In this document: piece after piece, positions 7,501 through 57,116 of the stretch
How positions within the stretch are numbered: position 1 is the first letter of the stretch
How the letters are laid out: each line of letters starts with the position of its first letter
NCBI GenBank assembly: GCA_016783355.1
Contig: JADHWR010000001.1
Location: 6,072 to 70,071, forward strand
Source: Candidatus Omnitrophota bacterium
GTDB lineage: Bacteria > Omnitrophota > Gorgyraeia > Gygaellales > JAHJCI01
DNA: 64,000 nucleotides
Direction: 5' to 3'
Notes under the pieces: generated by a model
The model's input: only the letters and a program-made list of their open reading frames with translations
Told to the model about the DNA's origin: nothing
The model's database searches: none
Position numbers and translations under genes: made by a program

Positions 7501-10500
7501 TGGGAAGACCGCACTCTTGCATTTTCAGTTTTGGCTCAACAACAATTACCGAACGACCAGAGTAATCTACACGTTTACCTAAAAGATTCTGCCTGAAACG
7601 ACCCTGCTTTCCTTTAAGCATATCCGCAAGGGATTTTAGGGGTCGATTATTCGCCGTCAAGACTGCGCGGCCATGTCTTCCGTTATCAAAAAGCGCATCC
7701 ACTGCCTCTTGAAGCATTCTTTTTTCATTGCGAATAATAATATCCGGAGAATTTAACTCAATCAGTTTTTTTAGACGGTTGTTGCGATTAATCACCTGAC
7801 GATATAAATCATTCAAATCAGAAGTAGCAAATCTACCGCCATCTAAAGGAACCAGAGGCCTTAGGTCTGGCGGTATAACAGGAAGAACCTCCAAAACCAT
7901 CCATTCAGGCTTGTTGCCTGACTTTTTATAATCCTCGACAAACTTAAGATTTTTTAATAACTTTCGACGAGAAAGATTATCTTTAGACTGAGCGAGGGTT
8001 TTTTTCATTCTGGCAATCAGCTCATCTAAATCTGCTTCCTTCAATAAATCCTGAATTGCCCCTGCTCCAATTTTAGAGACAAAACCTTTATGTTTTTGTC
8101 GTGCTTGTGTATTTTCCTCTTCTGGAAGAAGTTGGCCCCTTTTATACGGCGAATCGCCTGGCTCGCTCACAACGTATGCCTCATAATAAATTATCTTTTC
8201 CAACTCACGCAGCCCCAAACCCAATATGGCCGAAAGCCTGCCGGAGACAACCTTAAAAAACCAGACATGTGTTACGGGTGCGGCTAATTCTATCTGTCCC
8301 ATGCGCTGACGGCGCACCATCGAATGCGCCACGGTTACGCCGCAACGGTCACAGGTAATTCCCTTAAACTTTATACCCTTATATTTGCCGCAGTGACACT
8401 CCCAGTCCTTCGCTGGCCCAAAAATCCTTTCGCAAAAGAGTCCATCTTTTTCCGGCTTAAGCGTACGATAATTAATTGTTTCTGCCTTTCTCACCTCGCC
8501 GCTTGACCAGCTGCGAATAACCTGTGGCGAGGCGATCTTTATACCTAAACTTTCAAATTGATTTGGGTTCTCCTCCCTTAGCTCCTGCTTTTCTATACGA
8601 ATATCAAGACATAAAGCTTGTAATTCTTTCATCAATACATGAAATGACTCGGGAATTCCGGGAAAAATCCTTTGTTCTCCTTTGACAATTGCCTCGTAAA
8701 TTTTTGTCCGGCCGCTAACATCGTCGCTTTTCACGGTAAGCATCTCTTGTAAAATAAAGGCAGCGCCATAGGCCTCTAAAGCCCAAACCTCCATCTCTCC
8801 TAAGCGCTGACCCCCAAACTGTGCCTTTCCTCCTAAAGGCTGCTGAGTAACTAAAGAATAGGGGCCTATAGAGCGGGCATGAATCTTCTCCTCAACAAGA
8901 TGAATCAACTTCATCATATAAATATATCCCACAGAGATATTTTGGGCAAAGGGCTCGCCTGTATAGCCGTCAAAGAGTGTAATTTTACTATCCTCAGGTA
9001 GCCGTGCTTCTTTAAGCATTTGCCTTATTTCTTCCTCGCTTGCTCCATCAAATACAGGAGAGGCAACTTTTATACCCAGACTATGCGCTGCCCAACCAAG
9101 ATGAGTCTCTAAAATCTGGCCGACATTCATGCGCGAAGGAACGCCTAAAGGATTTAAAACAATCTCGACTGGTTCCCCCGATGGCAAAAAGGGCATATCT
9201 TCTTCTGGTAAAATTCTTGCAACTATCCCCTTATTGCCATGACGGCCGGATAACTTATCTCCCTCTTGAAGCCTGTGCTTTGTAGCAATATAGACGATAA
9301 CCTGCTTAAGAACACCGCTCGGTAATTCATCGCCCCGACGCACTGCTTCAATCTCCTGCTTCATCTGAATATCCAATGCCTTGATCTGTTCTACATAAGG
9401 CTGGTTTATCTGGTTTGTTTCAGGATACGTACTTAAATCTAAGTCTGTTAATTCCTCTCTATCTACTTTTAAAACGTCGCACAGCCGCCTCATTCTTTCT
9501 TTATTAAGGAATTCCCTCTCTTCCTTATAATATTGTTTTATCTCCTTAATTCTTTTCTGCTGGCGCAACTTCTCTTCTTTAGACTTCCTCCCTCGCTCTC
9601 GACGACTAAATTCATCAATATGCACGACGATACCTTCGATACCGGGCGGAACAACTAACGAGGTATCGCGCACATCTTCAGCTTTTTTACCAAATATTGC
9701 GCGCAAGAGTCTCTCTTCCGCAGAAAGCTCTGATTCAGTGGTCGGTGTAACCTTGCCAACAAGAATATCCCCTGGCTCAGCCCAGGCGCCAATGCGCACA
9801 ATACCATTTTCGCCAAGACTAAGCAATGCCTCTTCGCTAACATTAGGAATATCCCGCGTAATCTCCTCGTTGCCTAAGCGCGTCTCTGTGGCTTCGATTT
9901 CCAACTTCTCGATATGAATAGAAGTAAAGGCATCTTCCTTGACTATCTTTTCAGAAATCAAGATTGCATCTTCAAAATTGTATCCTCGCCAGGGCATAAA
10001 GGCCACCAATAGGTTTCTGCCCAAAGCAAGTTCTCCATCTTGGGTTGCTATCCCATCGGCAATGATCTGACCTTCTTCTACAAAATCCCCTAACAAAACC
10101 AGCGGTCTTTGATTTATGCAAGTATCGGCATTGGTGCGCAGGAATTTCTTCAATCGATAAGTCTTTTTTCCAATGATGATTGTGGAGGCATCAACAAAGG
10201 TTACCTTGCCGGCCTCTTCGGCAATCACAACTGCACCAGAATCCTCTGCTATCTTCCTTTCCATCATTGTTCCTACAAGAGGTGCCTGCGGATTAAGCAG
10301 TGGCACTGCTTGACGCTGCATATTGGCTCCCATCAATGCGCGATTGGCATCATCGTGCTCTAAAAAAGGAATTAAGGAAGCGGATATCGAAATCAATTGC
10401 TTACAAGACACATCCATAAACTCCACCTTTTTGGCCGCAAGCTTGGGAAAATCAGCTTTAAAACGACAAGATACATCCTTCTCTAAAAGATGACCCCCCT

Positions 10501-11980
10501 TATCCAAGGCAGCATTAGCCTGCGCAATCACCTTTTGCTCATCCAGATCAGCAGTTAGGTATTCAATCTGCTTGGTTGCTTTTGCGTCTTTTACTTTGCG
10601 ATAAGGTGTCTCTAATAAACCGAGGGGGTTAATCCGGGCATATGTAGTCAAGGAAGTAATCAAGCCGATGTTTGGACCCTCGGGGGTTTCTATGGGACAG
10701 AGACGGCCATAATGTGAAGAATGTATATCTCTTACCTCAAAACTGGCGCGCTCGCGCGAGAGGCCACCCGGACCCAAAGCACTCAGCCGGCGTTTATGGG
10801 TTAACTCCGCTAATGGATTTACCTGATCCATAAACTGCGAGAGTTGACCGCGTGTAAAAAAATCATGGATTTGATTGGAAAAAATTTTGAAATTTATGAG
10901 ATGGTAAATGGTTAAGTCTTCTGTCTCGCCCATCAATGTCAATCTTTCTCGAATATTACGTTCAATTCGCGCAAGCCCAATGCGCACCTGATTCTGAGCT
11001 AATTCTGCTACAGTACGTACCCGCCGATTACCCAAATGGTCGATATCATCAATCTTTCCTTTTCCCTCTTTTAAACCGATAAGATAGTTAATAACCTTAA
11101 TTACTGTTTCGTAATCAAGAACTCTTTTATCCAGAGGGGTATCCATTCCTAATTTGCGGTTGAGGATAAATCTGCCGCAGCGACTGAGGTCATACCGGCG
11201 CACATCAAAAAATAAGCGGTAAAATAACTCGGCTGCTGCCTCGGGCGTAACCGGCTCACCCGGCCGCATCTTACGGAAAAAGTCTAATAGAGCTTCTTCT
11301 TTACTCTTTGTGTAATCCCTTTGCAGTGTATTGTTAATTACTGTATTATCTTTTCCAAAAAAACTTTGAATTTCTTCATCAGAGCTTAAACCTAATATAC
11401 GCAGGATCTGTGTGACGGGAAATGTCCGTCGACGATCAATAACTGCCAATATGGCTTCTGAAATATCATATTTAAATTCCAACCATGTTCCCCGATAAGG
11501 AATAATCCTTCCATAAAAAATGCGCTTTCCTGTTATATGCGTTTCCTCTTCAAAAGAAACACCGGGAGAACGATGAAGTTGAAAGATGACAACACGCTCA
11601 TCGCCATTAATAATAAAAGAGGCAGTAGGGGTCATCAAAGGAACCTCACCAAAAAACACATCCTGTTCTAATGTCCTGCTGGCAGAGATAAATCTAAATC
11701 TTACCCATAGTGGTGCAGCATAAGTCATTCCTCTTGTTTTACATTCCTCAATATCATATTTTGGATTACCCAATACATAATTGATAAACTCAAGCCGTAT
11801 GTGCCGGCTCGGTGTTTCAATAGGAAAGAAATTAAGAAACTCTTCCTGTAATCCTGAGCATCGCCTCTCTGAAAAAGGAACATCTTTTTGCAAAAAATCC
11901 TTATAGGCCTTGAGCTGATGCCTCAGAAGATTGGGTACTGAATATACTTCCTTTAGTTTTGCAAAACTCTTTCTCTTCAA
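4580..11980 (-). CDS. rpoBC: DNA-directed RNA polymerase beta-beta' fusion (RpoB-RpoC in one continuous 2466-codon ORF)
   Basis: The N-terminal ~1150 aa are RpoB and end ...[20 protein letters not shown]. The RpoC N-terminus follows with no intervening stop (...[41 protein letters not shown]...), and the ORF ends with the RpoC C-terminus. Confidence 0.9.
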
Positions 11981-12383: not shown

Positions 12384-12397
12384 TTTTTACCCCCTTT

Positions 12398-12494
12398 AAT
12401 GAGTCCGCCAAAGTTCGTTGGCGGACGAATTAATCCCGCTGAGTGTGCCAAAATTATAAAATAGAATTTTGGCACATATTACGAAGCGGGATAA
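12398..12494 (-). ncRNA. Structured leader repeat, copy 1 of 3 (about 100 nt), directly upstream of the rplL ribosome-binding site
   Basis: Its AATGAGTCCGCCAAAGTTCGTTGGCGGACGAATT hairpin is identical to that in copies 2 and 3. A long nested hairpin follows (ATCCCGC...GCGGGAT enclosing GTGCCAAAATT...AATTTTGGCAC). The inner stem differs from copies 2 and 3 by compensatory changes. Confidence 0.6.
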
Positions 12495-12496
12495 GT

Positions 12497-15672: not shown

Positions 15673-16326
15673 TTATTCTAAGGCCTTTAAAAGCTCCTCA
15701 CCGAACTCTTTAGCTGCAAATGGACCAGCGGCAGTAATAATATTGCCATCTCTTACTACAGCTCCCCCTGTATAGTTAGCTCCTGCTTGTTGTAACTTCC
15801 CTGCTTCACTTGACCAAACAGTGGCAGATTTACCTTTAAGTAAGCCTGCCTTCGCCAGGATTACAGGAGCAATACAAATTGCGCCAACGATTTTATTTGC
15901 GGCAGAGGCATCCAATGCAATCTTATGGGCTTTGGCATTATCCCAATAAACGCTTGCACCACTGCCACCTATAAAAACCACAGCATCAAAATCAAAAGGA
16001 CTTAGCTCTTCAATCGTTAAATCAGGCTTTATTTTTGCTCCTAACATGCCCTGGGCATAATCTTGCGTAAAAGCAGCAACCTTAACTTCACAGCCTGCAT
16101 CCTCTAAAACCTGTTTGGGAATAAGTAGCTCTTCATCTCTGAAATTTTTCTGCGCAATAATCATCACTACTTTTTTCATCTCTTGGCCTCCTGCCTGCCC
16201 CGTTAGAAACTTTGTTTTTAACGGGGCCTGCGCCCAAACAACCTTTAAGAAAAAGGCACAAAAAAATCCAACCATTAAGCAAAAAACTGTTGTCCATTTC
16301 TGAAGTAGAACAAGATTCTTATTCAA
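15673..16326 (-). CDS. DJ-1/PfpI family protein. The start is ambiguous: either the long ORF has a signal-peptide-like N-terminus, or translation starts at the internal MKKVVMII
   Basis: The class I glutamine amidotransferase-like DJ-1 core has the nucleophile-elbow context ICIAP. A family-1 mini-element lies in the N-terminal extension at 16198-16226. Confidence 0.8.
   Translation of the reverse strand: MNKNLVLLQKWTTVFCLMVGFFCAFFLKVVWAQAPLKTKFLTGQAGGQEMKKVVMIIAQKNFRDEELLIPKQVLEDAGCEVKVAAFTQDYAQGMLGAKIKPDLTIEELSPFDFDAVVFIGGSGASVYWDNAKAHKIALDASAANKIVGAICIAPVILAKAGLLKGKSATVWSSEAGKLQQAGANYTGGAVVRDGNIITAAGPFAAKEFGEELLKALE
16198..16226. mobile_element. Family-1 miniature palindromic element (29 bp) flanked by CCTG direct repeats, in the 5' part of the DJ-1/PfpI ORF
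   Basis: The sequence is CCCCGTTAGAAAC-TTTG-TTTTTAACGGGG. CCTG occurs at 16194-16197 and again at 16227-16230. Confidence 0.6.
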
Positions 16327-26267: not shown

Positions 26268-26913
26268 TTAAAACATCCCAAATCATCTTAACCTGTTTTT
26301 TTGTCTCAGATTTCGTCCCACTATTATCAATAACAAAATCAGCTAAATTTAGCTTCTTTTTTAATGGCATCTGCAAATTTATGCGCTTTTTAATTTCCGA
26401 AAGGCAAAATCCCTTTTTTTTAAGGCGCAATTTTTGAATGTCTGACCTTGCCCTTACGGCAATTATCTTATCCACGATTCTCGCCAGTCCTGCTTCGATT
26501 AATAAGGGTGCATCAATTATAATAAACTTAAAATTTCGGGCCTGCTGAATCTGTATTTTAATTTCCTTAATTATTCCTGGATGCAGAATTTCGTTGAGCT
26601 TCTTTAGGGAATGCTTATTTCTGAAAGCACTCTTAGCTAACCTTTTTCGATTAATCTGTTGATTCCTGGAAAGTATCCTTTCCCCAAATGCCGCAAGAAC
26701 CCGCCTGTAAGCCCCGTTCGAAGTAAGGCGCCCAAGGCGACTGCCCCGCCAAATTCCGTGGCGGGGACTTCTAACGGGGTAAGCCTTTTTCTTGGGCTCG
26801 ATTAACTGATGCGCAATCCTATCTGCATCAATAATCTGAGCGCCTAATTGTTTAAAATAGTGCGCGCACGTCGTCTTCCCTGTGCCAAAACTGCCGGTAA
26901 TACCAACAATCAT
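26227..26913 (-). CDS. coaE: Dephospho-CoA kinase. The likely start is [15 protein letters not shown]. It carries an in-frame family-1 element
   Basis: P-loop [12 protein letters not shown] and CoaE family sequence. About 24 aa ([23 protein letters not shown]) are encoded by the inserted palindromic element. Confidence 0.85.
26712..26779. mobile_element. Family-1 palindromic element (68 bp) inserted in frame in coaE
   Basis: Termini CCCCGTTCGAAGT...ACTTCTAACGGGG with an inner CCCCGCC...GGCGGGG hairpin. TAAG direct repeats flank both ends, and element plus 4 bp equals 72 bp, which is 24 codons. Confidence 0.7.
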
Positions 26914-28295: not shown

Positions 28296-30964
28296 TTAAT
28301 CTCCTCCATCTCTAACCAATTCTTACCCTTCTTTATTACTACCTTTATGGGAACAGAAAGGGCTAAGGCATTCTCCATCTCATAAGATATCATCTCAATT
28401 GCCCTCTGCAATTGCCCGTTCGGTATCTCAAAAATAAGTTCATCGTGAATTTGCAGGAGGAGCTTCGCCGAAAGCGTTCTTTCCTCAATCTTCTGATATA
28501 TCTTAATCATCGCCATCTTAATTAAATCTGCTGCCGAGCCTTGGATGGATGAATTTACTGCCTGCCTTTCGGCAAATGCACGAACTGCGGCATTCTGATG
28601 ATTAATGTCAGGGAGATAGCGATGGCGACCTAAAATAGTTGTTACAAAATTGTCTTTTTTTGCCTTTTCAATCTGCCTGGCGATATAATCTTTTACTCTG
28701 GGATACCTTAAAAAATAGGCATCAATAAAGCGAGTTGCCTCCTCCCTTGAAATTCCTAATTCCCTTGCTAAACCAAAGGAAGATAGACCATAAATAATTC
28801 CAAAATTTATGCGCTTTGCTACTTCTCGCATCTGATCATTGACAATAGAATCCTCTGTGCCATAAACTAAAGAGGCAGTGGCACGATGTATGTCTTTGCC
28901 TTGCGAAAAAGCATCAATCAGCACCTTCTCGCCTGATAAATGTGCCAGAACCCTTAATTCTACCTGAGAATAATCAAAAGAGACCAAAAAATTATCCTCG
29001 CAACTCGTGATGAAAGCCTTTCGTATCTTGCGCCCTAACTCTGTCTTAATCGGTAGATTTTGCAAATTAGGATTAGAGGAGCTCAGTCTTCCCGTCTGTG
29101 TTCCTGTTTGATTGAAGAATGTATGAATGCGCAGGGTTTTTTTATCTGCCAGTTCCATTAAGGCATCGATATAAGTAGATTTTATTTTACAAAGCATACG
29201 ATATTCCAATAAAATTTTTGGTAAGGGATGCTGGCTTGCTAAGACAGCAAGAACCTCCTCATCGGTAGAGGCGCCTGTCTTTTTCTTTTTTATCACCGGC
29301 AGTTTTAATTTCTCAAAAAGAACCTGACGTAGCTGTAAGGGTGAGTTGATATTAAACGGCCCACCAGCAAGATGATAAATTTTACTGACCAGGCCTTTGC
29401 GCTTTTCTTCAATTTCAATGCCCAAGGCTTTAAGAAACTCTAAATCAAGCTTTATACCCTCTAATTCCATCTGCGCTAAAACAGGAATCAAGCGAATCTC
29501 TAAGTCGCAAAAGATGCGAAAGCTATCTTTAAGCTTTAGTTCTTTCTCTAAAACCGACTTAAGTGTTCCAATAACAACACAAACCTCAAGTGGACTTATC
29601 TTTCCTGCCCCGTTCGAAGTCCCCGCCGTAGGCGGGGCAGTCGCCCCGGGCGTCTTACTTCGAACGGGGCCTGCATCCAAAATTCTCTTCAGATAATCCC
29701 AGCACAGGCTCTCAAGACTATAATCAGACCGGGACGGATTCAAAAGATAAGCAGCAATCATCGTATCAAAACCTAACCCTTCTAGGGCGATATTATGCCG
29801 GGCTAATCGCAAAAAGATATCTTTTAGATTGTGGCCGATTTTCTTAATCTTTGGGTCTCTAAGGACAGGTTCAATGCTCTTTAAGGAGCCTTTCTCTAAT
29901 TCTAAAAAAGAATCACTCTCTGGAAGATAAACTGTCAACCCCTCCTCATTCATATAGAGAATCAACTCACCTGCCTGCCTAAACTGATCAATCCCGGCAA
30001 CCTGCCTGTTGGCACTTCGACGGAGTTTATCCCGAGCGAAGTCGAGGGACTCAGTGCTAGCACTCCGACTTCGCTCAGTGCCAACCCTGAGCTTGTCGAA
30101 GGGTTGCTCAGGTAAATCTTTAAGAAATTTTTTAAATTCTAACTCACGAAAGATTTCATAAAGATTTCTATAGTCAGGCTTCTTTATCTTTAAACTTTGC
30201 GCATCAAATTCTATATCTAAATCTGTCCTTAATTGTGCAAGATAATGACATAGTTTTATTTGCTCAATCTTTTCTTTCAAGCGAGAACGAAGCTTTTGTT
30301 CTTTTATCTGATCCAAATTCAATAAGAGATTTTCCAGAGACTTAAATTTATCCAGGAGCTTGGTGGCGGTCTTTTCTCCTATGCCAGGAACACCCGGGAT
30401 ATTATCAGCTGTATCTCCGGCAAGAGCAATAAAGTCAGCAATTCTGCCGGGTAAAAATCCGTATTGGCGCTTAACCCCTGCCACATCATAAATTATCTTT
30501 TTGTCTTTATGAGGATGCAGAACAATAACTCCCTCATCCACTAATTGCAAGATATCCTTATCAGCGCTGACAATCATTATTGTAAAATCCTTCTCTTTTG
30601 CCTTCCTGGTTAATGTCGCAATAACATCGTCTGCTTCAAAGCCCTCCTTCTCAAATATATTAATTCCAAAGGCCTTGATTATCTTTTTAATGTAAGGCAG
30701 TTGAGTCACTAAATCCGCAGGCATAGGAGGACGTTGTATCTTGTAACGCGCAAATTCTTTTTGGCGAAATGTGTGCCTTGAGACATCAAAACATACACCC
30801 ATATACTGCGGATTTATCTCTTTTAAAACCTTATTCAGAAAATTCACAAAGCCATAAATAGCATTGGTACAAAGACCGTAAGAGGTCGCAAGCCCCCTTA
30901 TGGCATAATAGGCGCGGTAACAGATGCCGTTGGCATCAATAAGTACTACTTGGGCTTTATCCAT
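28292..30964 (-). CDS. polA: DNA polymerase I (5'-3' exonuclease plus polymerase domains) carrying two different in-frame repeat insertions
   Basis: An 890 aa ORF with 5'-nuclease N-terminal sequence, Klenow-like motifs (..DYSQVELRVLAHLS.. ..QIHDELIFE..) and two inserted peptide segments that match the repeat families. Confidence 0.92.
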   Translation of the reverse strand: MDKAQVVLIDANGICYRAYYAIRGLATSYGLCTNAIYGFVNFLNKVLKEINPQYMGVCFDVSRHTFRQKEFARYKIQRPPMPADLVTQLPYIKKIIKAFGINIFEKEGFEADDVIATLTRKAKEKDFTIMIVSADKDILQLVDEGVIVLHPHKDKKIIYDVAGVKRQYGFLPGRIADFIALAGDTADNIPGVPGIGEKTATKLLDKFKSLENLLLNLDQIKEQKLRSRLKEKIEQIKLCHYLAQLRTDLDIEFDAQSLKIKKPDYRNLYEIFRELEFKKFLKDLPEQPFDKLRVGTERSRSASTESLDFARDKLRRSANRQVAGIDQFRQAGELILYMNEEGLTVYLPESDSFLELEKGSLKSIEPVLRDPKIKKIGHNLKDIFLRLARHNIALEGLGFDTMIAAYLLNPSRSDYSLESLCWDYLKRILDAGPVRSKTPGATAPPTAGTSNGAGKISPLEVCVVIGTLKSVLEKELKLKDSFRIFCDLEIRLIPVLAQMELEGIKLDLEFLKALGIEIEEKRKGLVSKIYHLAGGPFNINSPLQLRQVLFEKLKLPVIKKKKTGASTDEEVLAVLASQHPLPKILLEYRMLCKIKSTYIDALMELADKKTLRIHTFFNQTGTQTGRLSSSNPNLQNLPIKTELGRKIRKAFITSCEDNFLVSFDYSQVELRVLAHLSGEKVLIDAFSQGKDIHRATASLVYGTEDSIVNDQMREVAKRINFGIIYGLSSFGLARELGISREEATRFIDAYFLRYPRVKDYIARQIEKAKKDNFVTTILGRHRYLPDINHQNAAVRAFAERQAVNSSIQGSAADLIKMAMIKIYQKIEERTLSAKLLLQIHDELIFEIPNGQLQRAIEMISYEMENALALSVPIKVVIKKGKNWLEMEEIK
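29608..29669. mobile_element. Family-1 palindromic element (62 bp) inserted in frame in polA
   Basis: Perfect TIRs CCCCGTTCGAAGT / ACTTCGAACGGGG with an inner CCCCGCCGTAGGCGGGG hairpin. CCTG direct repeats sit at 29604-29607 and 29670-29673. The element encodes GPVRSKTPGATAPPTAGTSNGAG. Confidence 0.75.
30008..30113. repeat. Family-2 palindromic repeat (about 100 bp) inserted in frame in polA. It encodes DKLRVGTERSRSASTESLDFARDKLRRSANRQ
   Basis: Imperfect palindrome GAGCGAAGTCGAGGGACTCAGTGCTAGCACTCCGACTTCGCTC plus the CCTGAGCTTGTCGAAGGG core shared with the array at 31007-31198. Confidence 0.65.
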
Positions 30965-31006: not shown

Positions 31007-31198
31007 CCTCGACTTCGTCCCTCGACTTCGTCCCTCGACTTCGTCCCTCGACTTCGTCCCTCGACTTCGCTCGGGACGACCCTGAGCTTGTCGAAGGGTC
31101 GCTCGGGACGACCCTGAGCTTGTCGAAGGGTCGCTCGGGACGACCCTGAGCTTGTTGTCGAAGGGTCGCTCAGTGTCAATCCTGAGCTTGTCGAACGG
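31007..31198. repeat. Tandem array of family-2 units upstream of polA: five copies of a 13 bp unit then three copies of a 32 bp unit. This is not a CRISPR array
   Basis: CCTCGACTTCGTC appears five times. CGGGACGACCCTGAGCTTGTCGAAGGGTCGCT appears three times, followed by a partial CCTGAGCTTGTCGAACGG. There are no unique spacers. The array generates the spurious 68 aa ORF at 30973-31179. Confidence 0.8.
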
Positions 31199-31207
31199 AT
31201 TGAATTA

Positions 31208-32152
31208 TTAGTTTTTAGGGGTTAATTCCGTGGCTATCTTTTCTAAAGTCTGCTTTGCAGTTACAATATCATCCTGCTCATAGAATCTGATCGCATCTTG
31301 AAACTTGGCCTGCATAATAGCGATGTGTTCTTGTTTTTGTTTTTCTTTAATCTCTTTATTTATTTTATCTATTAAGGTCAAAAATGAGTCTCTGTCTGAC
31401 GGGTCCAAAGAAATGGCTAACACCAGTGCATTTTTTGCTTCCTCTATTTTGTGCTCTTCATATAAATCATCAGCCAGTTCCTTAAGTTTTTGAATCTCTT
31501 TTAACTCTGTTAATCTGACTGCCTTTTTATGAATGGCGAGCTCACGCACTAAACTAAGCGTCTCTTCCTCTATCAACTCCTGCTGAAGAGAAGGCTGAGT
31601 CTCTGCGATGGCCTGGCGTCTGCGTTTCGCCCACTCCACCCAAGACTCACCGGGAATTCCCAATTCTATACGTTTTTTCCAATAATCAAAAGCCTTCTTT
31701 AGTTCTCTTTTTTGCTCATAAAGCATAGCTAAATTTGAATATAAATTATGATACTGGGGATTTAATTTTAGTCCAACTAAATAAATCTTCTCTGCCCTAT
31801 CAAGTAAACCCTTGGCCTCAAACATAATTCCTAAATCATTGTAAGCAATAACATAAGCAGGGTCTAACTCAATTGCCTTCTGATAACAGACTGTGGCACT
31901 ATCTAAATCACCGCGCTGCTGAAACTGCAAACCTTGACTTCGAAGAAGACGTGCCTCTTTTTGAAAAGTAGTTTGTTTCTGCGCAAAAAGTGAGGTTGGG
32001 AAACAGAATAAGTTAATTGTTATAAATAAATTAATTGCTACAAAAGAGATAATTCCCTTTGTAAACCCCGTTCGAAATTCCTCCAATCTTTGCTTAAGGC
32101 TTAATGATACATAAGTAGCCGAGGCTTTTGAATCTATCTTAAATCTATGCAT
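31208..32152 (-). CDS. TPR-repeat protein with an N-terminal transmembrane/signal segment. The annotated start codon lies inside family-1 element A
   Basis: A 314 aa ORF with a hydrophobic segment (IISFVAINLFITINLFCF) and several TPR-like helices (AYNDLGIMFEAKG...). Confidence 0.7.
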   Translation of the reverse strand: MHRFKIDSKASATYVSLSLKQRLEEFRTGFTKGIISFVAINLFITINLFCFPTSLFAQKQTTFQKEARLLRSQGLQFQQRGDLDSATVCYQKAIELDPAYVIAYNDLGIMFEAKGLLDRAEKIYLVGLKLNPQYHNLYSNLAMLYEQKRELKKAFDYWKKRIELGIPGESWVEWAKRRRQAIAETQPSLQQELIEEETLSLVRELAIHKKAVRLTELKEIQKLKELADDLYEEHKIEEAKNALVLAISLDPSDRDSFLTLIDKINKEIKEKQKQEHIAIMQAKFQDAIRFYEQDDIVTAKQTLEKIATELTPKN

Positions 32153-32171
32153 ATCTAAATTTCGAACGGGG
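32046..32171. mobile_element. Family-1 element A (126 bp) with perfect 13 bp TIRs. TAAA flanks it on both sides
   Basis: CCCCGTTCGAAAT at 32046-32058 and ATTTCGAACGGGG at 32159-32171. TAAA is at 32042-32045 and at 32172-32175. Confidence 0.65.
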
Positions 32172-32433
32172 TAAACCCCGTTCGAAATAGGAAACGCTTT
32201 AATCTATCGTTCAAATAGCGTTTACCCTTTCCAGACTTCAGGTGTTTTTCTCTACTCATTGCATCATATTTATTTAGACAGGCTTCATAATAAATAAGCT
32301 TAAAGGGGCCTCTATTCTTAGTAGAAGACACCTTTCCTGAATTATGCTCACTAAAGCGTTTCCGTAAATCATTCGTTAAGCCTGTATACCATTTTTTATC
32401 TTTCTGGCTTTGAATTACATAAACATAATGCAT
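32155..32433 (-). CDS. Small GIY-YIG (URI-domain, UPF0213/YhbQ-like) nuclease, 92 aa
   Basis: MHYVYVIQSQKDKKWYTGLTNDLRKRFSEHNSG... shows the GIY...YIG spacing, the conserved Arg, and Glu in YYEAC. The last 9 codons (RTGFTPFEI) are read from TIR sequence. Confidence 0.8.
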   Translation of the reverse strand: MHYVYVIQSQKDKKWYTGLTNDLRKRFSEHNSGKVSSTKNRGPFKLIYYEACLNKYDAMSREKHLKSGKGKRYLNDRLKRFLFRTGFTPFEI

Positions 32434-32454
32434 TGCTTGTTATTTCGAACGGGG
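32176..32454. mobile_element. Family-1 element B (279 bp). Perfect 14 bp TIRs enclose a complete GIY-YIG nuclease ORF, and TAAA direct repeats flank both ends
   Basis: CCCCGTTCGAAATA at 32176-32189 and its inverse TATTTCGAACGGGG at 32441-32454. TAAA is at 32172-32175 and 32455-32458. The GIY-YIG ORF (32155-32433) starts 21 bp inside the right TIR boundary. Confidence 0.6.
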
Positions 32455-32511
32455 TAAATTGAGGCATCTTGATTTTAAGATACATTAAAAAAGCAAAAAG
32501 TCAAGAAAATA

Positions 32512-33384
32512 TTAAACGAGCTCTGCCCGGCGTATTAACTCTGGCACCAAATTGCTCAAGCCCAAAGGCATAATGTGGACTCCCGCGCACATTGGCTTCA
32601 ATTCTTTAATCAATCCAACAGCAATCTTCATTGACATCTGCCGCCGATCCGAGGCCTTCTCCATTTCCTTTATTAGATTATCAGGAACCTTTATACCGGA
32701 AATATTCTTATTCATATAACGTGCCATTTGAGCAGATTTTAATGGAATTATACCGGTTAATATAGTTGTTTTTAAATGTTTTATCTTTGATAAAAAGACA
32801 ACGAATTTTTCTATATCGAAAATTGCCTGGGTCTGGAAAAACTGGGCACCGTGCTCAATCTTTTTCTCCATCTTCATAATTTCAGGTTCAAAAGGCTCGG
32901 CGCCCGGATTTACTACGGCGCCAGCACAGAACTGGGGACTCCTTCCTTCCAGGGGGGCGCCACTCATATCAAAGCCCTCCTCTAATTTCTTTATTACACT
33001 TAAAAGCTCTATTGAATTTAAGTCAAATACTGCTTTTGCTTGCGGATGATCTCCTTTATCCGGAGAATCTCCTGTTAAAATCAAGATATTCTTAATACCA
33101 AAGGCTGCGGCGGCTAAAATATCTGATTGGAGGGCAAGCCGATTCCGGTCACGACAGGTAACTTGAAAAATAGGCTCAAAACCATTTTGTTTTAAGATGA
33201 TTGAACCGGCAAGAGAACTCAAGCGCATTACGGCACTCTGTAGGTCTGTAACATTTATGGCATCGATGCTTGCACCTAAAATCTTTGCCTCCTCTAAAAT
33301 TAGAGCCGAATCTGCGCCTTTTGGTGGCCCAATTTCTGAAGTGATTAAAAATTTTCCTGAGTGAATTTTTTCTTGAAAAGTCAT
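32512..33384 (-). CDS. metF: 5,10-methylenetetrahydrofolate reductase
   Basis: A 290 aa ORF with MetF TIM-barrel sequence (..SFEFFPPK-like SEIGPPKG.. LTGD..), adjacent to folD. Confidence 0.85.
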   Translation of the reverse strand: MTFQEKIHSGKFLITSEIGPPKGADSALILEEAKILGASIDAINVTDLQSAVMRLSSLAGSIILKQNGFEPIFQVTCRDRNRLALQSDILAAAAFGIKNILILTGDSPDKGDHPQAKAVFDLNSIELLSVIKKLEEGFDMSGAPLEGRSPQFCAGAVVNPGAEPFEPEIMKMEKKIEHGAQFFQTQAIFDIEKFVVFLSKIKHLKTTILTGIIPLKSAQMARYMNKNISGIKVPDNLIKEMEKASDRRQMSMKIAVGLIKELKPMCAGVHIMPLGLSNLVPELIRRAELV

Positions 33385-34226
33385 TTTTTCCTTTGTATCT
33401 TTGCTGCCTCAACAAGATTGCGCAAAAGCATCATTACAGTAAGGGGGCCTACGCCTCCAGGAACTGGTGTAATCCAGGAGGCCCTCTTTGCTGCTTCTTC
33501 AAACTCAACATCTCCCACAATTTTACCATTAGCCCTGTTTATCCCGACGTCAATCACAACGGCACCTTCTTTAATCCATTTACCCTTAATTAATCCTGCT
33601 CTACCCACAGCAGAAATAAGAACCTGCGCTCTCTCTACATGCTTGGCTAAATTACCCTTTTCGCTGGTTGCAATATGGCAGACCGCAACTGTAGCAAACT
33701 TCTCAAGAAGCATCAATGCCAGGGGCTTACCGACAATCCTGCTGTGTCCAACAATAACCACCTCTTTACCATATAAGTCAATACCAGTTACCTCCAGTAA
33801 CTGCATTACTGCTGCTGTAGTAGTAGGTAAAATCAAGGCATCCCCAACAATAAGACTCCCCAAATTACTCAGAGACACCCCTTCTATATCCTTTTGGGGC
33901 GAAAGTATACTGCTTATCTTTTTATGATCAATATGGACAGGTAAAGGGAACATTACAACTATCCCGTTTACGTGTTTATCCTGATTTAATCTCTGAATCA
34001 GACCGCTGAGGTCTTTTTCTGTTATAACTTGAGACAATTTATGCAATTGACACTCAATTCCTAAAGCAGAGGATTCTTTTTTCTGTGCTTTAATGTAGGA
34101 ATCACAACCGGGATTATCTCCTACCTGAATAGTTGCCAAAACCGGCCTGATCTTAAAATCAGAGATTTCTTTTGCTAAAGAATTCTTAATCCTGCGCGCA
34201 ATTGGTCCTGCCTCTAATAATCTCAT
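33381..34226 (-). CDS. folD: Bifunctional methylene-THF dehydrogenase / methenyl-THF cyclohydrolase
   Basis: A 281 aa ORF with the FolD motifs VGDNPGCDSYI and TPVPGGVGPLTV. Confidence 0.92.
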   Translation of the reverse strand: MRLLEAGPIARRIKNSLAKEISDFKIRPVLATIQVGDNPGCDSYIKAQKKESSALGIECQLHKLSQVITEKDLSGLIQRLNQDKHVNGIVVMFPLPVHIDHKKISSILSPQKDIEGVSLSNLGSLIVGDALILPTTTAAVMQLLEVTGIDLYGKEVVIVGHSRIVGKPLALMLLEKFATVAVCHIATSEKGNLAKHVERAQVLISAVGRAGLIKGKWIKEGAVVIDVGINRANGKIVGDVEFEEAAKRASWITPVPGGVGPLTVMMLLRNLVEAAKIQRKK

Positions 34227-39282: not shown

Positions 39283-40440
<1,158 letters not shown>

Positions 40441-43287: not shown

Positions 43288-45378
43288 CTATAGTTTTCTT
43301 GCTATCTTCTCAATTTTATAGCCTTCCATTATATCGCCTATTTTATAATCAGAAAAATTACCTATGGATATGCCGCACTCATAACCTTCAGATACCTGAG
43401 AAACCTCATCTTTAAAACGCCGAAGATTGCTAATCTTTCCGCTAAAGATAGTAGTGTTGTCTCTGATTATATCTATATTGAGCGTGCGCAAGATCTTACC
43501 CTTAGTTATAGTACACCCCGCCACAACACCACTTCGCGAGAGATTAAAAACCTGCTTCACGCGTGCCTGTCCAAAAGATACCTTTTTTATCTTTGGGCTT
43601 AACAACCCTTCTAAAGCCGCCTTTATCTCCTCGACTAATTCATAAATTATATTGTATGTCCTTACCTCCACCTGCTCTTTTTTAATTAATTCCTTTGCTC
43701 GCTCTTCTATATTTATATGAAAACCCAAGATTAGCGCATCAGAGACAGACGCCAGCATTACATCTGAAGTGTTAATTAAGCCCACTCCTTTATGGGTTAT
43801 CTTAAATTTTACCTCTTTTGTCTCTAATTTTATTAGAGAATCCCGCACCGCCTCTAATGAGCCGAATGTGTCTGCTTTAATAATAATCTTCAGCTCTTTA
43901 AGAACACCGTTTTTTATTTCCTGATGTAAATCCTCCAGCGAAAACCGATGTGGTGAAATATTCCTTTTTTCCTTTGTCTCGCGCAGCGAGATAAGTGCTC
44001 TTGCCCCTTTCTCGTCCTTGACAACAAAAAATCTCTCTCCTGCCTCAGGCACGGATTCAAAACCTAAAATTCCCACAGGCTGACTGGCAGTAGCTTCCTC
44101 AACTCTCTGGCCACAGTCATTAAATATTGCCTTTACCTTTGCTAAGTTCTTCCCCGCAACAAGTAGATCATTAAGATGTAATTTTCCATTCTGCACCAAT
44201 AAAGTTGCCAGAGGACCCCTGTTTGGGTCCTGTCTTGCCTCAATAACAACACCCCTTGCTATCTGATTATAATCTGCTTTCAATTCTAACATTTCTGCCT
44301 CTAAAAGAATCATCTCTAATAATTCATCTATGCCCTGACCGGTTTTGGCAGAAACCTCTACCGTTACGGTCTTGCCTTGCCACTCCTCAGGAACTAAACC
44401 AATATCAGCAAGTTGCTTCTTTACCCTATCTACGTTAGCCTGAACTCGATCAACTTTATTTATGGCGACAATTATAGGAACCTCAGCATCTCGGGCATGG
44501 TTAATTGCCTCAATTGTCTGAGGCATAACACCATCATCAGCAGCAACCACTAAAACAACAATATCTGTAATCTGTGCGCCCCGTGCACGCATTGCCGTAA
44601 ATGCCTCATGACCGGGTGTATCCAAAAATGCAATCTTACCCTTATCTAAATTAACCTCATATGCACCGATGTGCTGGGTTATGCCTCCATGTTCAAAATC
44701 AACGACCTTTGTCTTTCTAATCATATCCAAAAGGGAGGTCTTACCATGGTCAACATGACCCATAAATGTTACTACGGGTGGACGAACATTTAAATCCTGA
44801 GGCTGGCTTGATACCTCATGTAAGGAAAGCAGGCGTTCTTCTAAAGAGGGAGCCTGCTTGACTTTAAAGCCAAAATTCTCACAAACCTGCTCTACTTCAT
44901 CTTTTCCTAAAGATTGGTTAATGTTGGCTAGGATTTTTAACTTTAAAAGTTCCTGCATTAGCTGCGAGAGTTTAATTTGAAGCTTAACCGCTAAATTCTT
45001 AACAGAAATAGGGAAATCTAATTCTAATACCTTAGCTTGTGGCGCCTCTTCAACCAAAATTGCTTGTAGCTGCTGGGGTTGAGGCTCTAAGGTCTTTGCT
45101 TGAATTTTAGACTTGCGGGAGACTCTTCTCTTTGGTTTAGGGGCTATTTCTTTCCTCTTGATTTGCTTTTTGCCTGGCTCTTTTCGTAGGACCGCAGGCT
45201 TTTTTGCTTTCCTTGCCCCGTTTGAAATCCCTCGCCTAACGGCGGGGGCAGCTACCTTTGGTGTCTTACTTCGAACGGGGTTTGGCTTTGTAGAGGAAGC
45301 CCTTAAGCGAGTCTTTGAAGCCTTTCTCACTTTAGTTTTTAATGCTTTTGGTTTCTTAGGTTTTTTTATCTTTTTCAT
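43288..45378 (-). CDS. infB: Translation initiation factor IF-2 with an in-frame family-1 element in the basic N-terminal region
   Basis: The GTPase domain ([13 protein letters not shown]...) and C-terminal domains are typical. The N-terminal segment NPVRSKTPKVAAPAVRRGISNGA is encoded by the palindrome. Confidence 0.92.
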   Translation of the reverse strand: MKKIKKPKKPKALKTKVRKASKTRLRASSTKPNPVRSKTPKVAAPAVRRGISNGARKAKKPAVLRKEPGKKQIKRKEIAPKPKRRVSRKSKIQAKTLEPQPQQLQAILVEEAPQAKVLELDFPISVKNLAVKLQIKLSQLMQELLKLKILANINQSLGKDEVEQVCENFGFKVKQAPSLEERLLSLHEVSSQPQDLNVRPPVVTFMGHVDHGKTSLLDMIRKTKVVDFEHGGITQHIGAYEVNLDKGKIAFLDTPGHEAFTAMRARGAQITDIVVLVVAADDGVMPQTIEAINHARDAEVPIIVAINKVDRVQANVDRVKKQLADIGLVPEEWQGKTVTVEVSAKTGQGIDELLEMILLEAEMLELKADYNQIARGVVIEARQDPNRGPLATLLVQNGKLHLNDLLVAGKNLAKVKAIFNDCGQRVEEATASQPVGILGFESVPEAGERFFVVKDEKGARALISLRETKEKRNISPHRFSLEDLHQEIKNGVLKELKIIIKADTFGSLEAVRDSLIKLETKEVKFKITHKGVGLINTSDVMLASVSDALILGFHINIEERAKELIKKEQVEVRTYNIIYELVEEIKAALEGLLSPKIKKVSFGQARVKQVFNLSRSGVVAGCTITKGKILRTLNIDIIRDNTTIFSGKISNLRRFKDEVSQVSEGYECGISIGNFSDYKIGDIMEGYKIEKIARKL
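45216..45280. mobile_element. Family-1 palindromic element (65 bp) in frame in infB
   Basis: CCCCGTTTGAAAT...ACTTCGAACGGGG termini with an inner CCCTCGCC...GGCGGGGG hairpin. Element plus 4 bp equals 69 bp. Confidence 0.7.
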
Positions 45379-46549: not shown

Positions 46550-46630
46550 GTTCTTTGTCTAAATATGGGTAAATATGGGGACGGTTCTCGCTATCTTATT
46601 GTAATACAACAAGATAAAAATAAATTTTCG

Positions 46631-46805
46631 CCACAAAGTCGCCACAAAAACGTTGACGACCCGCCAAAGTATTGTGGCGGGATTTGCACCAGAAAGTCGC
46701 CACAAAGCGTTGGCGACCCGCCAAAGTATTATGGCGGGATTTGCACCAGAAAGTCGCCACAAAGCGTTGGCGACCCGCCAAAGTATTATGGCGGGATTGG
46801 CGCAT
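46631..46805. repeat. Three tandem copies of a 57 bp double-hairpin repeat between rimP and nusA, plus a degenerate fourth hairpin
   Basis: Each unit is GTCGCCACAAAGCGTTGGCGAC + CCCGCCAAAGTATTATGGCGGG. Copies start near 46631, 46691 and 46748. The repeats generate overlapping spurious ORFs on both strands. Confidence 0.8.
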
Positions 46806-46853
46806 CCGCCGGTTCTTATTGGAGGCGAATCCGCCAATTATTTTGGCGGAAGC

Positions 46854-56922: not shown

Positions 56923-56937
56923 CGCTCCTACCTCCTC

Positions 56938-57031: not shown

Positions 57032-57116
57032 TATGTACATTATTTGGGTCATTCCATAAGTCTCGTCCTTACTTATTTTAAATTATATCTATACCTTCGT
57101 CAATATCTATAAATTT

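What the first reader, a model, noticed from the sequence alone, without database searches (positions are those of the whole stretch)
32042..32458. A GIY-YIG nuclease gene sits between the same terminal inverted repeats that flank in-frame mini-insertions across this locus
Two family-1 elements lie side by side. Element A (126 bp) and element B (279 bp) have perfect 13-14 bp TIRs CCCCGTTCGAAAT(A) / (T)ATTTCGAACGGGG. Each is flanked by TAAA; the order is TAAA-A-TAAA-B-TAAA. Element B encloses a complete small GIY-YIG nuclease ORF. Six 29-68 bp elements elsewhere in the window share the same termini. The layout is that of an autonomous element and its miniature derivatives, with a GIY-YIG nuclease in the position of the mobilizing enzyme. 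No such GIY-YIG-based bacterial element is known to me. The GIY-YIG fold is ubiquitous (UPF0213/YhbQ), so a chance association of an abundant repeat with a host gene is the main alternative.
Basis: partly seen in the sequence, partly recalled or inferred. Interest (0 to 1): 0.9.

Follow-up and report, generated by a model that had tools for sequence, protein, structure and literature searches.

The report
Tiny GIY-YIG nuclease transposon with MITEs
A 279-bp element bounded by inverted repeats carries only an 86-residue GIY-YIG nuclease gene, and it and its gene-less 29-106-bp relatives (some in frame inside genes such as DNA polymerase I) look like a very small transposon family spread across many uncultured bacterial phyla, although no described bacterial transposon uses this enzyme type.

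Summary
The sequence observation holds, with two corrections. Element A is 106 bp, not 126. There are five small copies elsewhere in the window, not six. Element B (32176-32454) is 279 bp and has perfect 13-bp TIRs. It encloses a GIY-YIG ORF whose last five conserved codons are themselves the TIR. This is not a chance association: 75 of 86 homologous genes from at least 10 phyla are bounded by the same TIR, and the two arms change together. Across 99 elements, 37 have identical 4-bp flanks, against 4.6 expected. Two pairs of copies are 99% identical exactly from TIR tip to TIR tip, with unrelated flanks. Removing A and B in silico restores an intact signal-peptide start for the neighbouring TPR gene. 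All five small copies lie in frame inside ORFs, and nine PolA orthologues lack the 22-residue insert. In other genomes the element often sits exactly on a host start codon (an ATGA overlap) or in frame in prepilin leaders. The closest published system is the Ssn/NTS pair (Chenal 2025): single-domain GIY-YIG ssDNA nucleases flanked by hairpin repeats. Here the repeat motif, the protein C-terminus and the TIR/TSD architecture all differ. I found no description of a GIY-YIG TIR/TSD element with MITEs. Whether the nuclease itself mobilises the elements is inferred, not shown.

The parts
32176..32454 (-). Element B: 279-bp TIR element carrying the GIY-YIG gene (the autonomous-looking unit)
   Evidence: Perfect 13-bp TIRs, flanked by TAAA on both sides. 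Homologous units of 269-297 bp occur in 80 genome loci.
32155..32433 (-). GIY-YIG nuclease ORF, 92 aa. The canonical 86-aa part is 32176-32433. Residues 82-86 (LFRTG) are encoded by the TIR. The 6-aa tail comes from read-through into TAAA and element A.
   Evidence: Pfam PF01541 E 3.3e-19. 605 homologues, mostly 86 aa, end in ..RFL[SF]LTG. AF2 model pLDDT 89.5 with a GIY-YIG fold; nearest structures are UPF0213 BH0048 and Slx1.
32442..32454 (.). TIR of B upstream of the gene (8 nt before the ATG)
32176..32188 (.). TIR of B that doubles as the last codons of the GIY-YIG ORF
32066..32171 (.). Element A: 106-bp gene-less element with the same perfect TIRs and an unrelated AT-rich interior. It contains an ATG (32152-32150, minus strand) in frame with the TPR gene.
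32062..32065 (.). TAAA target-site duplication copy 1 (left of A)
32172..32175 (.). TAAA copy shared between A and B
   Evidence: The same shared 4-bp junction is seen in L003, L054 and L044.
32455..32458 (.). TAAA copy 3 (right of B)
32459..32467 (-). Displaced original start of the TPR gene (ATG CCT CAA), now separated from the rest of the gene by the 393-bp A+B insertion
   Evidence: Deleting A, B and two TAAA copies in silico gives MPQFTKGIISFVAINLFITINLFCFPTSLFAQ... A promoter-like site TTGACT-16-TATCTT lies at 32504-32477.
29608..29669 (.). 62-bp MITE, in frame inside polA (adds ..PVRSKTPGATAPPTAGTSNGA..), TSD CCTG
   Evidence: The insert is absent from 9 PolA orthologues. ssDNA hairpin -30.3 kcal/mol, z -8.3.
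26712..26779 (.). 68-bp MITE of the same subfamily in the opposite orientation, in frame in a 245-aa ORF, TSD TAAG
45216..45280 (.). 65-bp MITE of the same subfamily, in frame in a 696-aa ORF, flanks CTTG/TTTG
16198..16226 (.). 29-bp minimal hairpin MITE, in frame in a 217-aa ORF, TSD CCTG
39867..39895 (.). 29-bp minimal hairpin MITE (two TIRs plus a 3-nt loop), in frame in a 381-aa ORF, flanks CTTG/TTTG

Best explanation
Elements A and B and the five small copies belong to one family of very small TIR mobile elements.

The full-length unit is about 275-280 bp. It consists of two 13-bp inverted repeats (N-CCCG-TTAGAG/TTCGAA-A-N) around a single gene for an 86-residue, single-domain GIY-YIG nuclease. 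The upstream TIR lies 5-20 nt before the ATG. The downstream TIR encodes the last five residues (L-S/F-L/R-T-G). Gene-less derivatives of 27-130 bp keep only the TIRs plus a short, often GC-rich hairpin interior. Insertion duplicates 4 bp of target.

Shown here: the architecture, the TSDs, the sharp boundaries of near-identical copies, and the insertion nature of the copies in this window.

Inferred: the nuclease recognises its own TIRs, most likely when the two arms pair as a hairpin or cruciform in single-stranded or unwound DNA. It would then cut in the variable flank a few nucleotides from the stem, as shown for the related Ssn nucleases. Host polymerase and ligase would complete the joining. 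Cutting in the 4-nt flank next to a resident hairpin would also explain why new copies land beside old ones and share one TSD (A|B here; B|B|A in L003).

Selection then keeps only harmless insertions:
- copies whose length plus 4 is a multiple of 3, inside tolerant loops of genes;
- full-length copies placed exactly on a host start codon, so the element's stop overlaps the host ATG (ATGA);
- full-length copies in frame in prepilin leaders.

In this window, A and B together were inserted at codons 4/5 of the TPR gene. The GIY gene now sits behind that gene's promoter.
For: 1. Association. 75 of 86 GIY-YIG copies located by tblastn alone, from at least 10 phyla, are bounded by an inverted repeat of at least 10 bp. 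Protein homology stops abruptly at ..LTG. N-terminal extensions reading MNPVRE.. are the translated upstream TIR.

2. The two arms vary together. Examples are CGTACGAA, CACGTATGAAATA, CGATAGTGTTA and CGTAAGTAG. Positions 0 and 12, which lie outside my selection window, are 89% complementary with 3-4 Watson-Crick pair types. Pairing falls to 54% at position 13.

3. TSDs. 37 of 99 elements have identical 4-bp flanks, against 4.6 expected. For MITE-size copies the count is 20 of 35. A further JGI copy has TSD TCAA.

4. Recent movement. L052 and L055, from the same MAG, are 99.3% identical over the element. L039 copies a and c are 98.9% identical. Flank identity is about 40%, and identity starts and stops at the TIR tips.

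5. Insertion in this window. Deleting A, B and two TAAA copies restores a start codon plus signal peptide behind a promoter-like site. The PolA insert is missing from 9 orthologues. All five small copies are in frame, with length+4 equal to 33, 72, 66, 33 and 69.

6. MITE TIRs match the TIR of the GIY element at the same locus better than those of other loci: 10.93 versus 9.75 of 13 positions, with 0 of 2000 permutations as high.

7. Enzyme. The fold is GIY-YIG. Y5, Y16 and E62 align with the residues Y6, Y17 and E64 whose mutation abolishes Ssn cleavage. Ssn binds hairpin ssDNA and cuts a few nucleotides 5' in the variable flank (PMC11893778).

8. The TIRs fold as strong ssDNA hairpins, z -7 to -9.

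9. Elements sharing one TSD occur in several loci: the window, L003, L054 and L044.
Against: - No biochemical or genetic evidence ties the nuclease to movement.
- GIY-YIG enzymes are hydrolytic nucleases with no known strand-transfer activity. An 86-aa protein has no separate DNA-binding domain.
- 47 of 64 full-length copies lack a perfect TSD. Their right flank is nearly always TGA/TAA, i.e. the stop codon, which suggests selection or another process.
- Two exact-protein look-ups found the gene at one fixed locus in more than 20 contigs from many samples each, so many copies are old and stable.
- No empty-site allele of the A/B locus was found in JGI metagenomes, and there are no copies in IMG/VR.
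- A conventional transposase acting in trans elsewhere in these genomes cannot be excluded from 64 kb plus 6-kb loci.
Confidence: 0.6

Rival explanations
1. This is a domesticated host system of the Ssn/NTS or REP/RAYT type. The GIY-YIG protein would be a chromosomal ssDNA nuclease that uses the dispersed hairpins as recognition sites, for example to modulate recombination, transformation or replication restart. Repeat spread would be an occasional side effect, and the gene itself would no longer be a selfish transposon.
For: Ssn nucleases have this role in Neisseria, and their genes are flanked by the cognate repeat. Exact proteins P0118 and P0039 sit at one fixed locus in more than 20 contigs across samples. 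The protein is under strong constraint, with 33 invariant columns.
Against: Copies 99% identical with TIR-exact boundaries occur at different sites within one genome. TSDs are present. Cross-phylum identity reaches 70-79%, which is hard to explain without horizontal transfer. Insertions split a host gene and lie inside essential genes, which is not what recognition sites placed for a host function would look like. There is no PADLOC hit.
Confidence: 0.2
2. The hairpin/TIR repeats are ordinary MITEs moved in trans by an unidentified conventional transposase. The GIY-YIG ORF would be cargo that once landed in the loop of such a MITE, for example as a free-standing homing-type endonuclease, and now hitch-hikes.
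For: Gene-less copies with unrelated interiors share the TIRs (element A). Hydrolytic GIY-YIG nucleases are not known transposases. A 4-bp TSD is typical of several DDE IS families (my own knowledge).
Against: No transposase gene bounded by these TIRs appears in the window or in 80 loci; all TIR pairs are 420 bp or less apart, although pairs further apart than 420 bp were not scanned. The gene-TIR unit is conserved as a unit in hundreds of species from at least 10 phyla, with the TIR embedded in conserved codons. A passenger would not be retained so uniformly in a 277-bp element. MITE TIR variants track the resident GIY element.
Confidence: 0.15
3. An abundant genomic repeat is associated with a housekeeping UPF0213/YhbQ-like gene by chance.
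For: The nearest solved relatives are UPF0213 proteins. YazA-type genes show 45% identity.
Against: 75 of 86 relatives in unrelated genomes have the same TIRs in the same positions. The C-terminus is encoded by the TIR. The terminus is about 275-fold over-represented in the window.
Confidence: 0.01

Closest known systems
Ssn single-stranded-DNA nucleases and their NTS/SRM hairpin repeats (Chenal et al., Nat Commun 2025, PMC11893778)
   Same: Both are single-domain GIY-YIG proteins of about 90 aa. The catalytic Tyr/Tyr/Glu residues are conserved (Y5/Y16/E62 here versus Y6/Y17/E64). The gene is bracketed by a hairpin-forming repeat that is also dispersed through the genome. The authors themselves note the IS-like look and the REP/RAYT analogy.
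   Different: The repeat is unrelated. The SRM pattern has 0 matches in the window and 1 in 514 kb of related loci, against 4 around an Azospirillum control gene. Here the gene lies inside one hairpin, between two 13-bp arms, rather than between complete hairpins. One arm is coding sequence. 4-bp TSDs and in-frame intragenic copies are seen, whereas NTS are 2% intragenic. The protein is only 32-37% identical over residues 3-66, with an unrelated C-terminal helix.
REP/REPIN-RAYT systems and IS200/IS605
   Same: A small nuclease gene is flanked by inverted copies of a hairpin repeat that is dispersed as short non-autonomous copies. Hairpin recognition in ssDNA is the proposed mode.
   Different: The enzyme is GIY-YIG, not a HUH/Y1 transposase. 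True terminal inverted repeats and 4-bp TSDs are present, whereas IS200/IS605 and REPINs make none. Copies are frequently intragenic.
Rickettsia palindromic elements (RPE; Ogata et al. 2000, my own knowledge)
   Same: Palindromic repeats are inserted in frame into protein-coding genes, including essential ones, and are tolerated as extra peptide segments.
   Different: The sequence family and hosts differ. RPEs have no associated autonomous element with defined TIR/TSD. Here a coding master copy is present.
Bacterial MITEs with TIR and TSD (e.g. Neisseria Correia elements; my own knowledge)
   Same: Short TIR-bounded non-autonomous elements with fixed-length TSDs that can be co-transcribed with or translated into host genes.
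   Different: Known MITEs are derived from, and assumed to be moved by, DDE-type IS transposases. Here the only protein-coding relative encodes a GIY-YIG nuclease, and the whole 'autonomous' unit is under 300 bp.
UPF0213 (YazA/YhbQ, PDB 1ZG2) and the Slx1 nuclease domain
   Same: These are the closest solved folds (Foldseek E 6e-5 and 2.5e-3). Slx1 is a structure-specific nuclease for branched DNA (my own knowledge).
   Different: UPF0213 genes such as B. subtilis yazA are single-copy housekeeping neighbours of rsmI, and no TIRs were apparent there (not examined in detail). The C-terminal KSGxGKRYLKNRLKRFLSLTG helix is specific to the present family.
GIY-YIG endonuclease of eukaryotic Penelope-like retroelements and GIY-YIG homing endonucleases (I-TevI, Seg)
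   Same: A GIY-YIG nuclease serves a mobile element.
   Different: Those enzymes are domains of larger proteins (fused to a reverse transcriptase or a DNA-binding domain). They act in retrotransposition or homing to one cognate site. They have no TIRs and no MITEs.

Membership tests
Ssn nuclease family (cd10448; Chenal 2025) | Single-domain GIY-YIG protein of about 90-100 aa | tested here: met
   The canonical protein is 86 aa. Pfam GIY-YIG covers residues 1-71. The AF2 model is a single domain, b-b-a-b-a-a.
Ssn nuclease family (cd10448; Chenal 2025) | Catalytic residues equivalent to Y6, Y17 and E64 of N. meningitidis SsnA | tested here: met
   Y5, Y16 and E62 align with Y6/Y17/E64 of the collinear, SRM-flanked S. 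meliloti protein. They are invariant in 32 homologues.
Ssn nuclease family (cd10448; Chenal 2025) | Top CDD hit cd10448, or blastp E<1e-10 with at least 75% cover to Nm SsnA (CAX49033.1) | tested here: inconclusive
   Neither CDD nor the Nm sequence is available. Two SRM-flanked proxies (L106 Azospirillum, L104 S. meliloti) give 32-37% identity over 65 aa and about 43 bits, and the C-terminal 20 aa do not align. tblastn against plasmids ranks YazA (E 1e-7) above the proxies (E 3e-4 and 6e-4).
Ssn nuclease family (cd10448; Chenal 2025) | Gene flanked by SRM repeats (HGTCWYN0-2YYVSBRHN0-5WNVSBRGN0-2RNCYNB) | tested here: not met
   There are 0 matches in the 64-kb window and 1 in 513,667 bp of related loci. 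The positive control L106 has 4.
Ssn nuclease family (cd10448; Chenal 2025) | Site-specific cleavage of ssDNA only, next to the hairpin | not testable with these tools
   This needs purified protein and oligonucleotide substrates.
TIR DNA transposon / insertion sequence with MITE derivatives | Terminal inverted repeats at both ends | tested here: met
   The 13-bp TIRs are perfect in A and B. They are conserved and co-varying in 75 of 86 relatives.
TIR DNA transposon / insertion sequence with MITE derivatives | Target-site duplication of fixed length | tested here: met
   The TSD is 4 bp. 37 of 99 are perfect against 4.6 expected, and 20 of 35 for MITE-size copies. Only 17 of 64 full-length copies are perfect.
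TIR DNA transposon / insertion sequence with MITE derivatives | Near-identical copies at different sites, with identity ending at the termini | tested here: met
   L052/L055 are 99.3% identical and L039 a/c 98.9%. Flanks are about 40% identical.
TIR DNA transposon / insertion sequence with MITE derivatives | Occupied versus empty sites | tested here: inconclusive
   No empty allele was found in JGI metagenomes. Indirect support comes from the in-silico excision that restores the TPR gene start, nine PolA orthologues without the insert, and a B-B-A variant contig that may be an assembly artefact.
TIR DNA transposon / insertion sequence with MITE derivatives | Encodes a transposase of a recognised class (DDE, HUH/Y1, serine, tyrosine) | tested here: not met
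   The only ORF is a GIY-YIG nuclease. There is no room for another gene in 279 bp.
REP/REPIN-RAYT | HUH Y1 transposase gene flanked by REPs; REPINs extragenic and without TSD | tested here: not met
   The protein is GIY-YIG. TSDs are present. All five small copies in the window are intragenic.
Rickettsia palindromic elements | Palindromic repeats inserted in frame in ORFs | tested here: met
   All five small copies are in frame inside ORFs. This is a resemblance of behaviour only; sequence relatedness to RPEs was not tested.
GIY-YIG homing endonucleases (I-TevI/Seg type) | GIY-YIG domain joined to a DNA-binding domain; homing to one cognate site, often intron- or phage-borne | tested here: not met
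   The protein is 86 aa with no second domain. The NCBIfam group-I-intron endonuclease model scores 20 bits against a cut-off of 56. Insertion sites are diverse. There are no IMG/VR relatives.

The most novel reading that the evidence does not exclude
The 86-residue GIY-YIG protein would itself be the transposase of a previously unrecognised class of prokaryotic DNA transposon. At about 277 bp this would be the smallest autonomous one. It would recognise its own 13-bp TIRs as an extruded hairpin, cut 4 nt into the flank, and rely on host repair for joining. Its right TIR would double as its C-terminal codons, and its ends are built so that insertion at ATGA or G-F-T codons leaves host genes translatable. 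It would have seeded in-frame MITEs throughout CPR, Omnitrophota, Planctomycetota and other genomes by horizontal transfer.
Probability: 0.45. Interest if true: 0.9.

Novelty: new variant of a known kind. Interest (0 to 1): 0.8.

Why it matters
If the nuclease drives movement, this adds a fifth enzyme type (GIY-YIG) to the repertoire of prokaryotic transposases. It would also define a minimal autonomous mobile element under 300 bp.

It would give a mechanism for the many short in-frame peptide insertions and N-terminal extensions seen in proteins of CPR/Patescibacteria, Omnitrophota and relatives. These confuse gene calling and homology searches. Examples are MNPVRE.. extensions, ..PVR...SNG.. 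inserts, and GIY-pilin fusion proteins.

It would extend the Ssn story from a host nuclease with recognition repeats to a bona fide mobile-element family, supplying the TSD and boundary evidence the Ssn paper lacked.

The matched TIR-nuclease pairs, many with co-varying specificities, are also a natural library of small sequence- and structure-specific nucleases.

Tried and rejected
- Elements A and B share only the TIRs. blastn and tblastn find no interior similarity, so A is not a simple deletion derivative of B.
- The empty-site search for the A/B locus (TCCCTTTGTAAATTGAGGCAT) in JGI metagenomes gave 0 hits.
- The IMG/VR scan with the protein alignment found no relatives, so there is no evidence for phage carriage.
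- Exact-protein look-ups of P0118 and P0039, meant to find one protein in several genomic contexts, showed only one conserved locus each.
- The metagenome scan for the 62-68-bp MITE subfamily gave one extra copy only.
- The Ssn SRM motif is absent.
- PADLOC gave no defence-system hit. NCBIfam gave only a sub-threshold intron-endonuclease hit. Rfam gave nothing at the elements.
- Supplementary data of the Ssn paper are not held, so the N. meningitidis SsnA sequence could not be compared directly.
- Literature searches for a bacterial GIY-YIG transposon or MITE returned nothing beyond the Ssn paper.
- A 3-bp TSD model was considered for the CTTG/TTTG flanks. I rejected it because only a 4-bp TSD keeps the host frames (29+4, 65+4).
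Full report
**1. What is in the sequence**

On the plus strand the order is TAAA (32062-65), element A (32066-32171), TAAA (32172-75), element B (32176-32454), TAAA (32455-58). Both elements end in the perfect 13-bp inverted repeat CCCCGTTCGAAAT / ATTTCGAACGGGG.

Element A is 106 bp, not 126. B is 279 bp.

The terminus occurs 11 times in the window at up to one mismatch, against 0.04 expected from shuffles. Pairing the half-sites gives five further small elements, not six: 16198-16226 (29 bp), 26712-26779 (68), 29608-29669 (62), 39867-39895 (29) and 45216-45280 (65).

Each is flanked by its own 4-bp direct repeat: CCTG, TAAG, CCTG, and CTTG/TTTG twice. TAAA is therefore the duplicated target of this particular site, not part of the element.

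The three 62-68-bp copies share their GC-rich interior and occur in both orientations. The 29-bp copies are just two TIRs and a 3-nt loop. As single strands all fold into strong hairpins, z -7 to -9.

**2. The gene**

The minus-strand ORF 32155-32433 (92 aa) is a GIY-YIG domain (Pfam E 3.3e-19). An AlphaFold model (pLDDT 89.5) is a single b-b-a-b-a-a domain. Its nearest solved relatives are the UPF0213 protein BH0048 and the nuclease domain of Slx1.

There are 605 close homologues, 70-79% identical, in Omnitrophota, Patescibacteria, Planctomycetota, Chloroflexota and others. An exhaustive search finds 9,014 clusters at E<=1e-3.

The canonical protein is 86 aa and ends in ..GKRYLKNRLKRFL[S/F]LTG. 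In the window the corresponding LFRTG is encoded by the TIR itself. Because the flank here is TTTA rather than a stop codon, translation runs on into element A.

Homology among relatives stops abruptly at LTG. Several relatives begin MNPVRE.., which is the translated upstream TIR.

**3. The association is general, not chance**

One scan of species-representative genomes gave at least 562 relatives. I examined 80 loci from at least 10 phyla.

Locating the gene by tblastn alone, 75 of 86 copies are bounded by an inverted repeat of at least 10 bp. One arm lies 5-20 nt before the ATG and the other forms the last codons. In the more distant relatives the second arm lies just after the stop.

The arms vary together: CGTACGAA, CACGTATGAAATA, CGATAGTGTTA, CGTAAGTAG and others. 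Positions 0 and 12 were not used to select the elements, yet they are 89% complementary with 3-4 Watson-Crick pair types. Pairing drops to 54% at position 13, so the TIR is 13 bp.

**4. Evidence that the elements are mobile**

(a) TSDs. Among 99 TIR-bounded elements, 37 have identical 4-bp flanks against 4.6 expected when partners are permuted. For gene-less copies the count is 20 of 35. The one extra copy found in JGI metagenomes has TSD TCAA and 56+4 = 60 bp.

(b) Near-identical copies. Two copies in one Saccharibacteria MAG on different contigs (L052, L055) are 99.3% identical from TIR tip to TIR tip, with flanks at random-level identity. Two copies in L039 are 98.9% identical with the same sharp boundaries.

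(c) Reconstructed empty site. Deleting A, B and two TAAA copies in silico joins ATG CCT CAA TTT A to CA AAG GGA... This yields MPQFTKGIISFVAINLFITINLFCFPTSLFAQ.., a signal-peptide-like start for the TPR ORF, behind a promoter-like TTGACT-16-TATCTT. The 393-bp double insertion therefore split codons 4/5 of that gene. The gene now continues in frame from an ATG inside A, two nucleotides after the GIY stop.

(d) Absence from orthologues. The polA copy adds 22 residues in a linker that is gapped in all nine aligned orthologues.

(e) Frame. All five small copies lie inside ORFs, and length+4 is 33, 72, 66, 33 and 69, which is the signature of selection against frameshifts.

(f) TIR matching. MITE TIRs resemble the TIR of the GIY element at the same locus more than those of other loci: 10.93 versus 9.75 of 13 positions, with 0 of 2000 permutations as high.

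(g) A possible polymorphism. A 659-bp contig from another sample carries B-B-A with single TTTA copies between the units. This may be a polymorphism or an assembly artefact.

**5. Further anatomy seen in relatives**

In 25 of 61 full-length copies the element ends ..CGGGA followed by TGA. The nuclease stop then overlaps an ATG, and 23 of 27 such junction start codons open an ORF of at least 60 aa, with N-termini resembling MurG, topoisomerase I and FolD (my reading, not searched). The upstream duplicate ATGAA supplies the MNPVRE extension. The element thus sits exactly on a host start codon as a new, translationally coupled first cistron. P0118 lies between two genes with 4-bp overlaps on both sides.

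In L039, and in database proteins P0251 and P0265, the 275+4-bp unit is in frame in pilin-like genes..SGFT-PLETT-[GIY]-LTG-FTLIE.. This regenerates what looks like the G|FTLIE prepilin cleavage motif.

Elements often sit side by side sharing one TSD: the window, L003, L054 and L044.

**6. Mechanism (inferred)**

The only characterised relatives with a comparable genomic habit are the Ssn nucleases (PMC11893778). These are about 94-aa single-domain GIY-YIG enzymes. They bind their cognate hairpin only as ssDNA and cut a few nucleotides 5' of it in the variable flank. Y6A, Y17A and E64A abolish cutting.

The present protein keeps the equivalent Y5, Y16 and E62.

I therefore propose the following. 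The nuclease recognises the paired TIRs as a hairpin or cruciform and cuts in the 4-nt flank. Host enzymes complete excision or copying and the joining. Cleavage beside resident copies makes those sites preferred targets.

The nuclease-TIR recognition, the cut positions and the joining step are all untested. GIY-YIG enzymes have no known strand-transfer chemistry, and that is the main weakness of the model.

**7. Comparison with known systems**

Membership in Ssn proper is doubtful.
- The published SRM pattern has no match in the window and one in 514 kb of related loci.
- It marks four sites around an Azospirillum control gene that I fetched.
- Identity to two SRM-flanked proxies is 32-37%, is limited to residues 3-66, and the C-terminal helix is unrelated.
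- YazA-type UPF0213 proteins score better than the proxies.
- The CDD assignment could not be tested.

The architecture also differs. Here the gene lies inside one hairpin, one arm is coding, TSDs are present and copies are intragenic.

REP/RAYT and IS200/IS605 share the hairpin logic but use HUH enzymes and make no TSD. Rickettsia palindromic elements share the in-frame behaviour only.

Five literature searches found no description of a bacterial TIR/TSD element encoding a GIY-YIG nuclease. The library is incomplete, so this is absence of evidence.

**8. Verdict**

- The chance explanation is excluded.
- The autonomous-plus-MITE reading is well supported structurally.
- The enzymatic role is a reasonable but unproven inference (0.6).

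Relative to the Ssn work this is a new variant: a different clade, a different repeat, and explicit transposon hallmarks. There is a substantial chance that it represents a new transposase class.

Evidence against ongoing activity:
- the two exact proteins looked up (P0118, P0039) each sit at one fixed locus across many samples;
- no empty allele was found;
- most full-length copies have imperfect TSDs.

Noticed in passing
window 63384-63707 (-), with tRNAs at 63117-63189 and 63217-63302: There is an Rfam group I intron hit (RF00028, 88 bits, full length) just upstream of tRNA-Gly(GCC) and tRNA-Leu(TAG). ARAGORN calls no interrupted tRNA around it, so its host gene is unidentified.
   Followed up: partly
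window 46624-46817 and 63565-63607: A 57-nt unit containing the hairpin CCCGCCAAAGTATTATGGCGGG is repeated three times in tandem. An inverted 43-nt copy (95%) lies inside the group I intron hit.
   Followed up: no
window 12390-12496, 56930-57036, 62977-63087: A third dispersed intergenic repeat of about 106 nt carries the hairpin GTCCGCCAAAGTTCGTTGGCGGAC. Two copies are 100% identical over 69 nt.
   Followed up: no
window 30030-30103 (inside polA) and 31007-31198 (between polA and the TPR gene): A different GC-rich repeat ('family 2') is translated in PolA as PFDKLRVGTERSR..SLDFARDKLRRS. It falls where orthologues are shorter, in a poorly conserved linker. It also forms 13-nt and 32-nt tandem arrays in the next intergenic region.
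   Followed up: partly
L039 2984-3258, 3742-4016, 5595-5869; proteins P0251, P0253, P0265: Full-length GIY elements (275+4 bp = 93 codons) are inserted in frame in pilin-like genes. The nuclease is then fused between the leader and the FTLIE helix, and LTG|FTLIE regenerates what looks like the prepilin cleavage motif. This recurs in unrelated metagenomic proteins.
   Followed up: partly
L013, L022, L035, L052, L055, L060, L067, L075 and others (right junction of the GIY element): The element end ..CGGGA plus TGA makes an ATGA overlap: the nuclease stop and the host start. 23 of 27 such junction starts open ORFs of at least 60 aa. The upstream TSD copy gives the MNPVRE.. extension. P0118 has 4-bp overlaps with both neighbouring genes.
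   Followed up: yes
L003 1-659 (ENA ERZ24794679 contig): The same locus in another sample reads flank-TTTA-B-TTTA-B-TTTA-A, i.e. a tandem second copy of element B. It also has a synonymous G/A difference from the window. An assembly artefact is not excluded.
   Followed up: partly
L106 476-984 (Azospirillum lipoferum 4B plasmid AZO_p3) and L104 (S. meliloti): GIY-YIG genes lie between sufB and sufC, and between gltA and lpxB. They are bracketed by inverted pairs of CGTCATCCCCGCGAAGGCGGGGATCCAG, which are textbook NTS/SRM repeats. This makes them useful positive controls for the Ssn architecture.
   Followed up: yes
L094 2001-3099 and window 32176-34226: In two unrelated genomes the GIY element lies next to folate one-carbon genes: directly upstream of folD in L094, and next to the MTHFR/folD genes here. 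This is probably coincidence.
   Followed up: no
window 4580-11980 (-): A single ORF of 2,466 aa starts with TTG. It was not examined.
   Followed up: no
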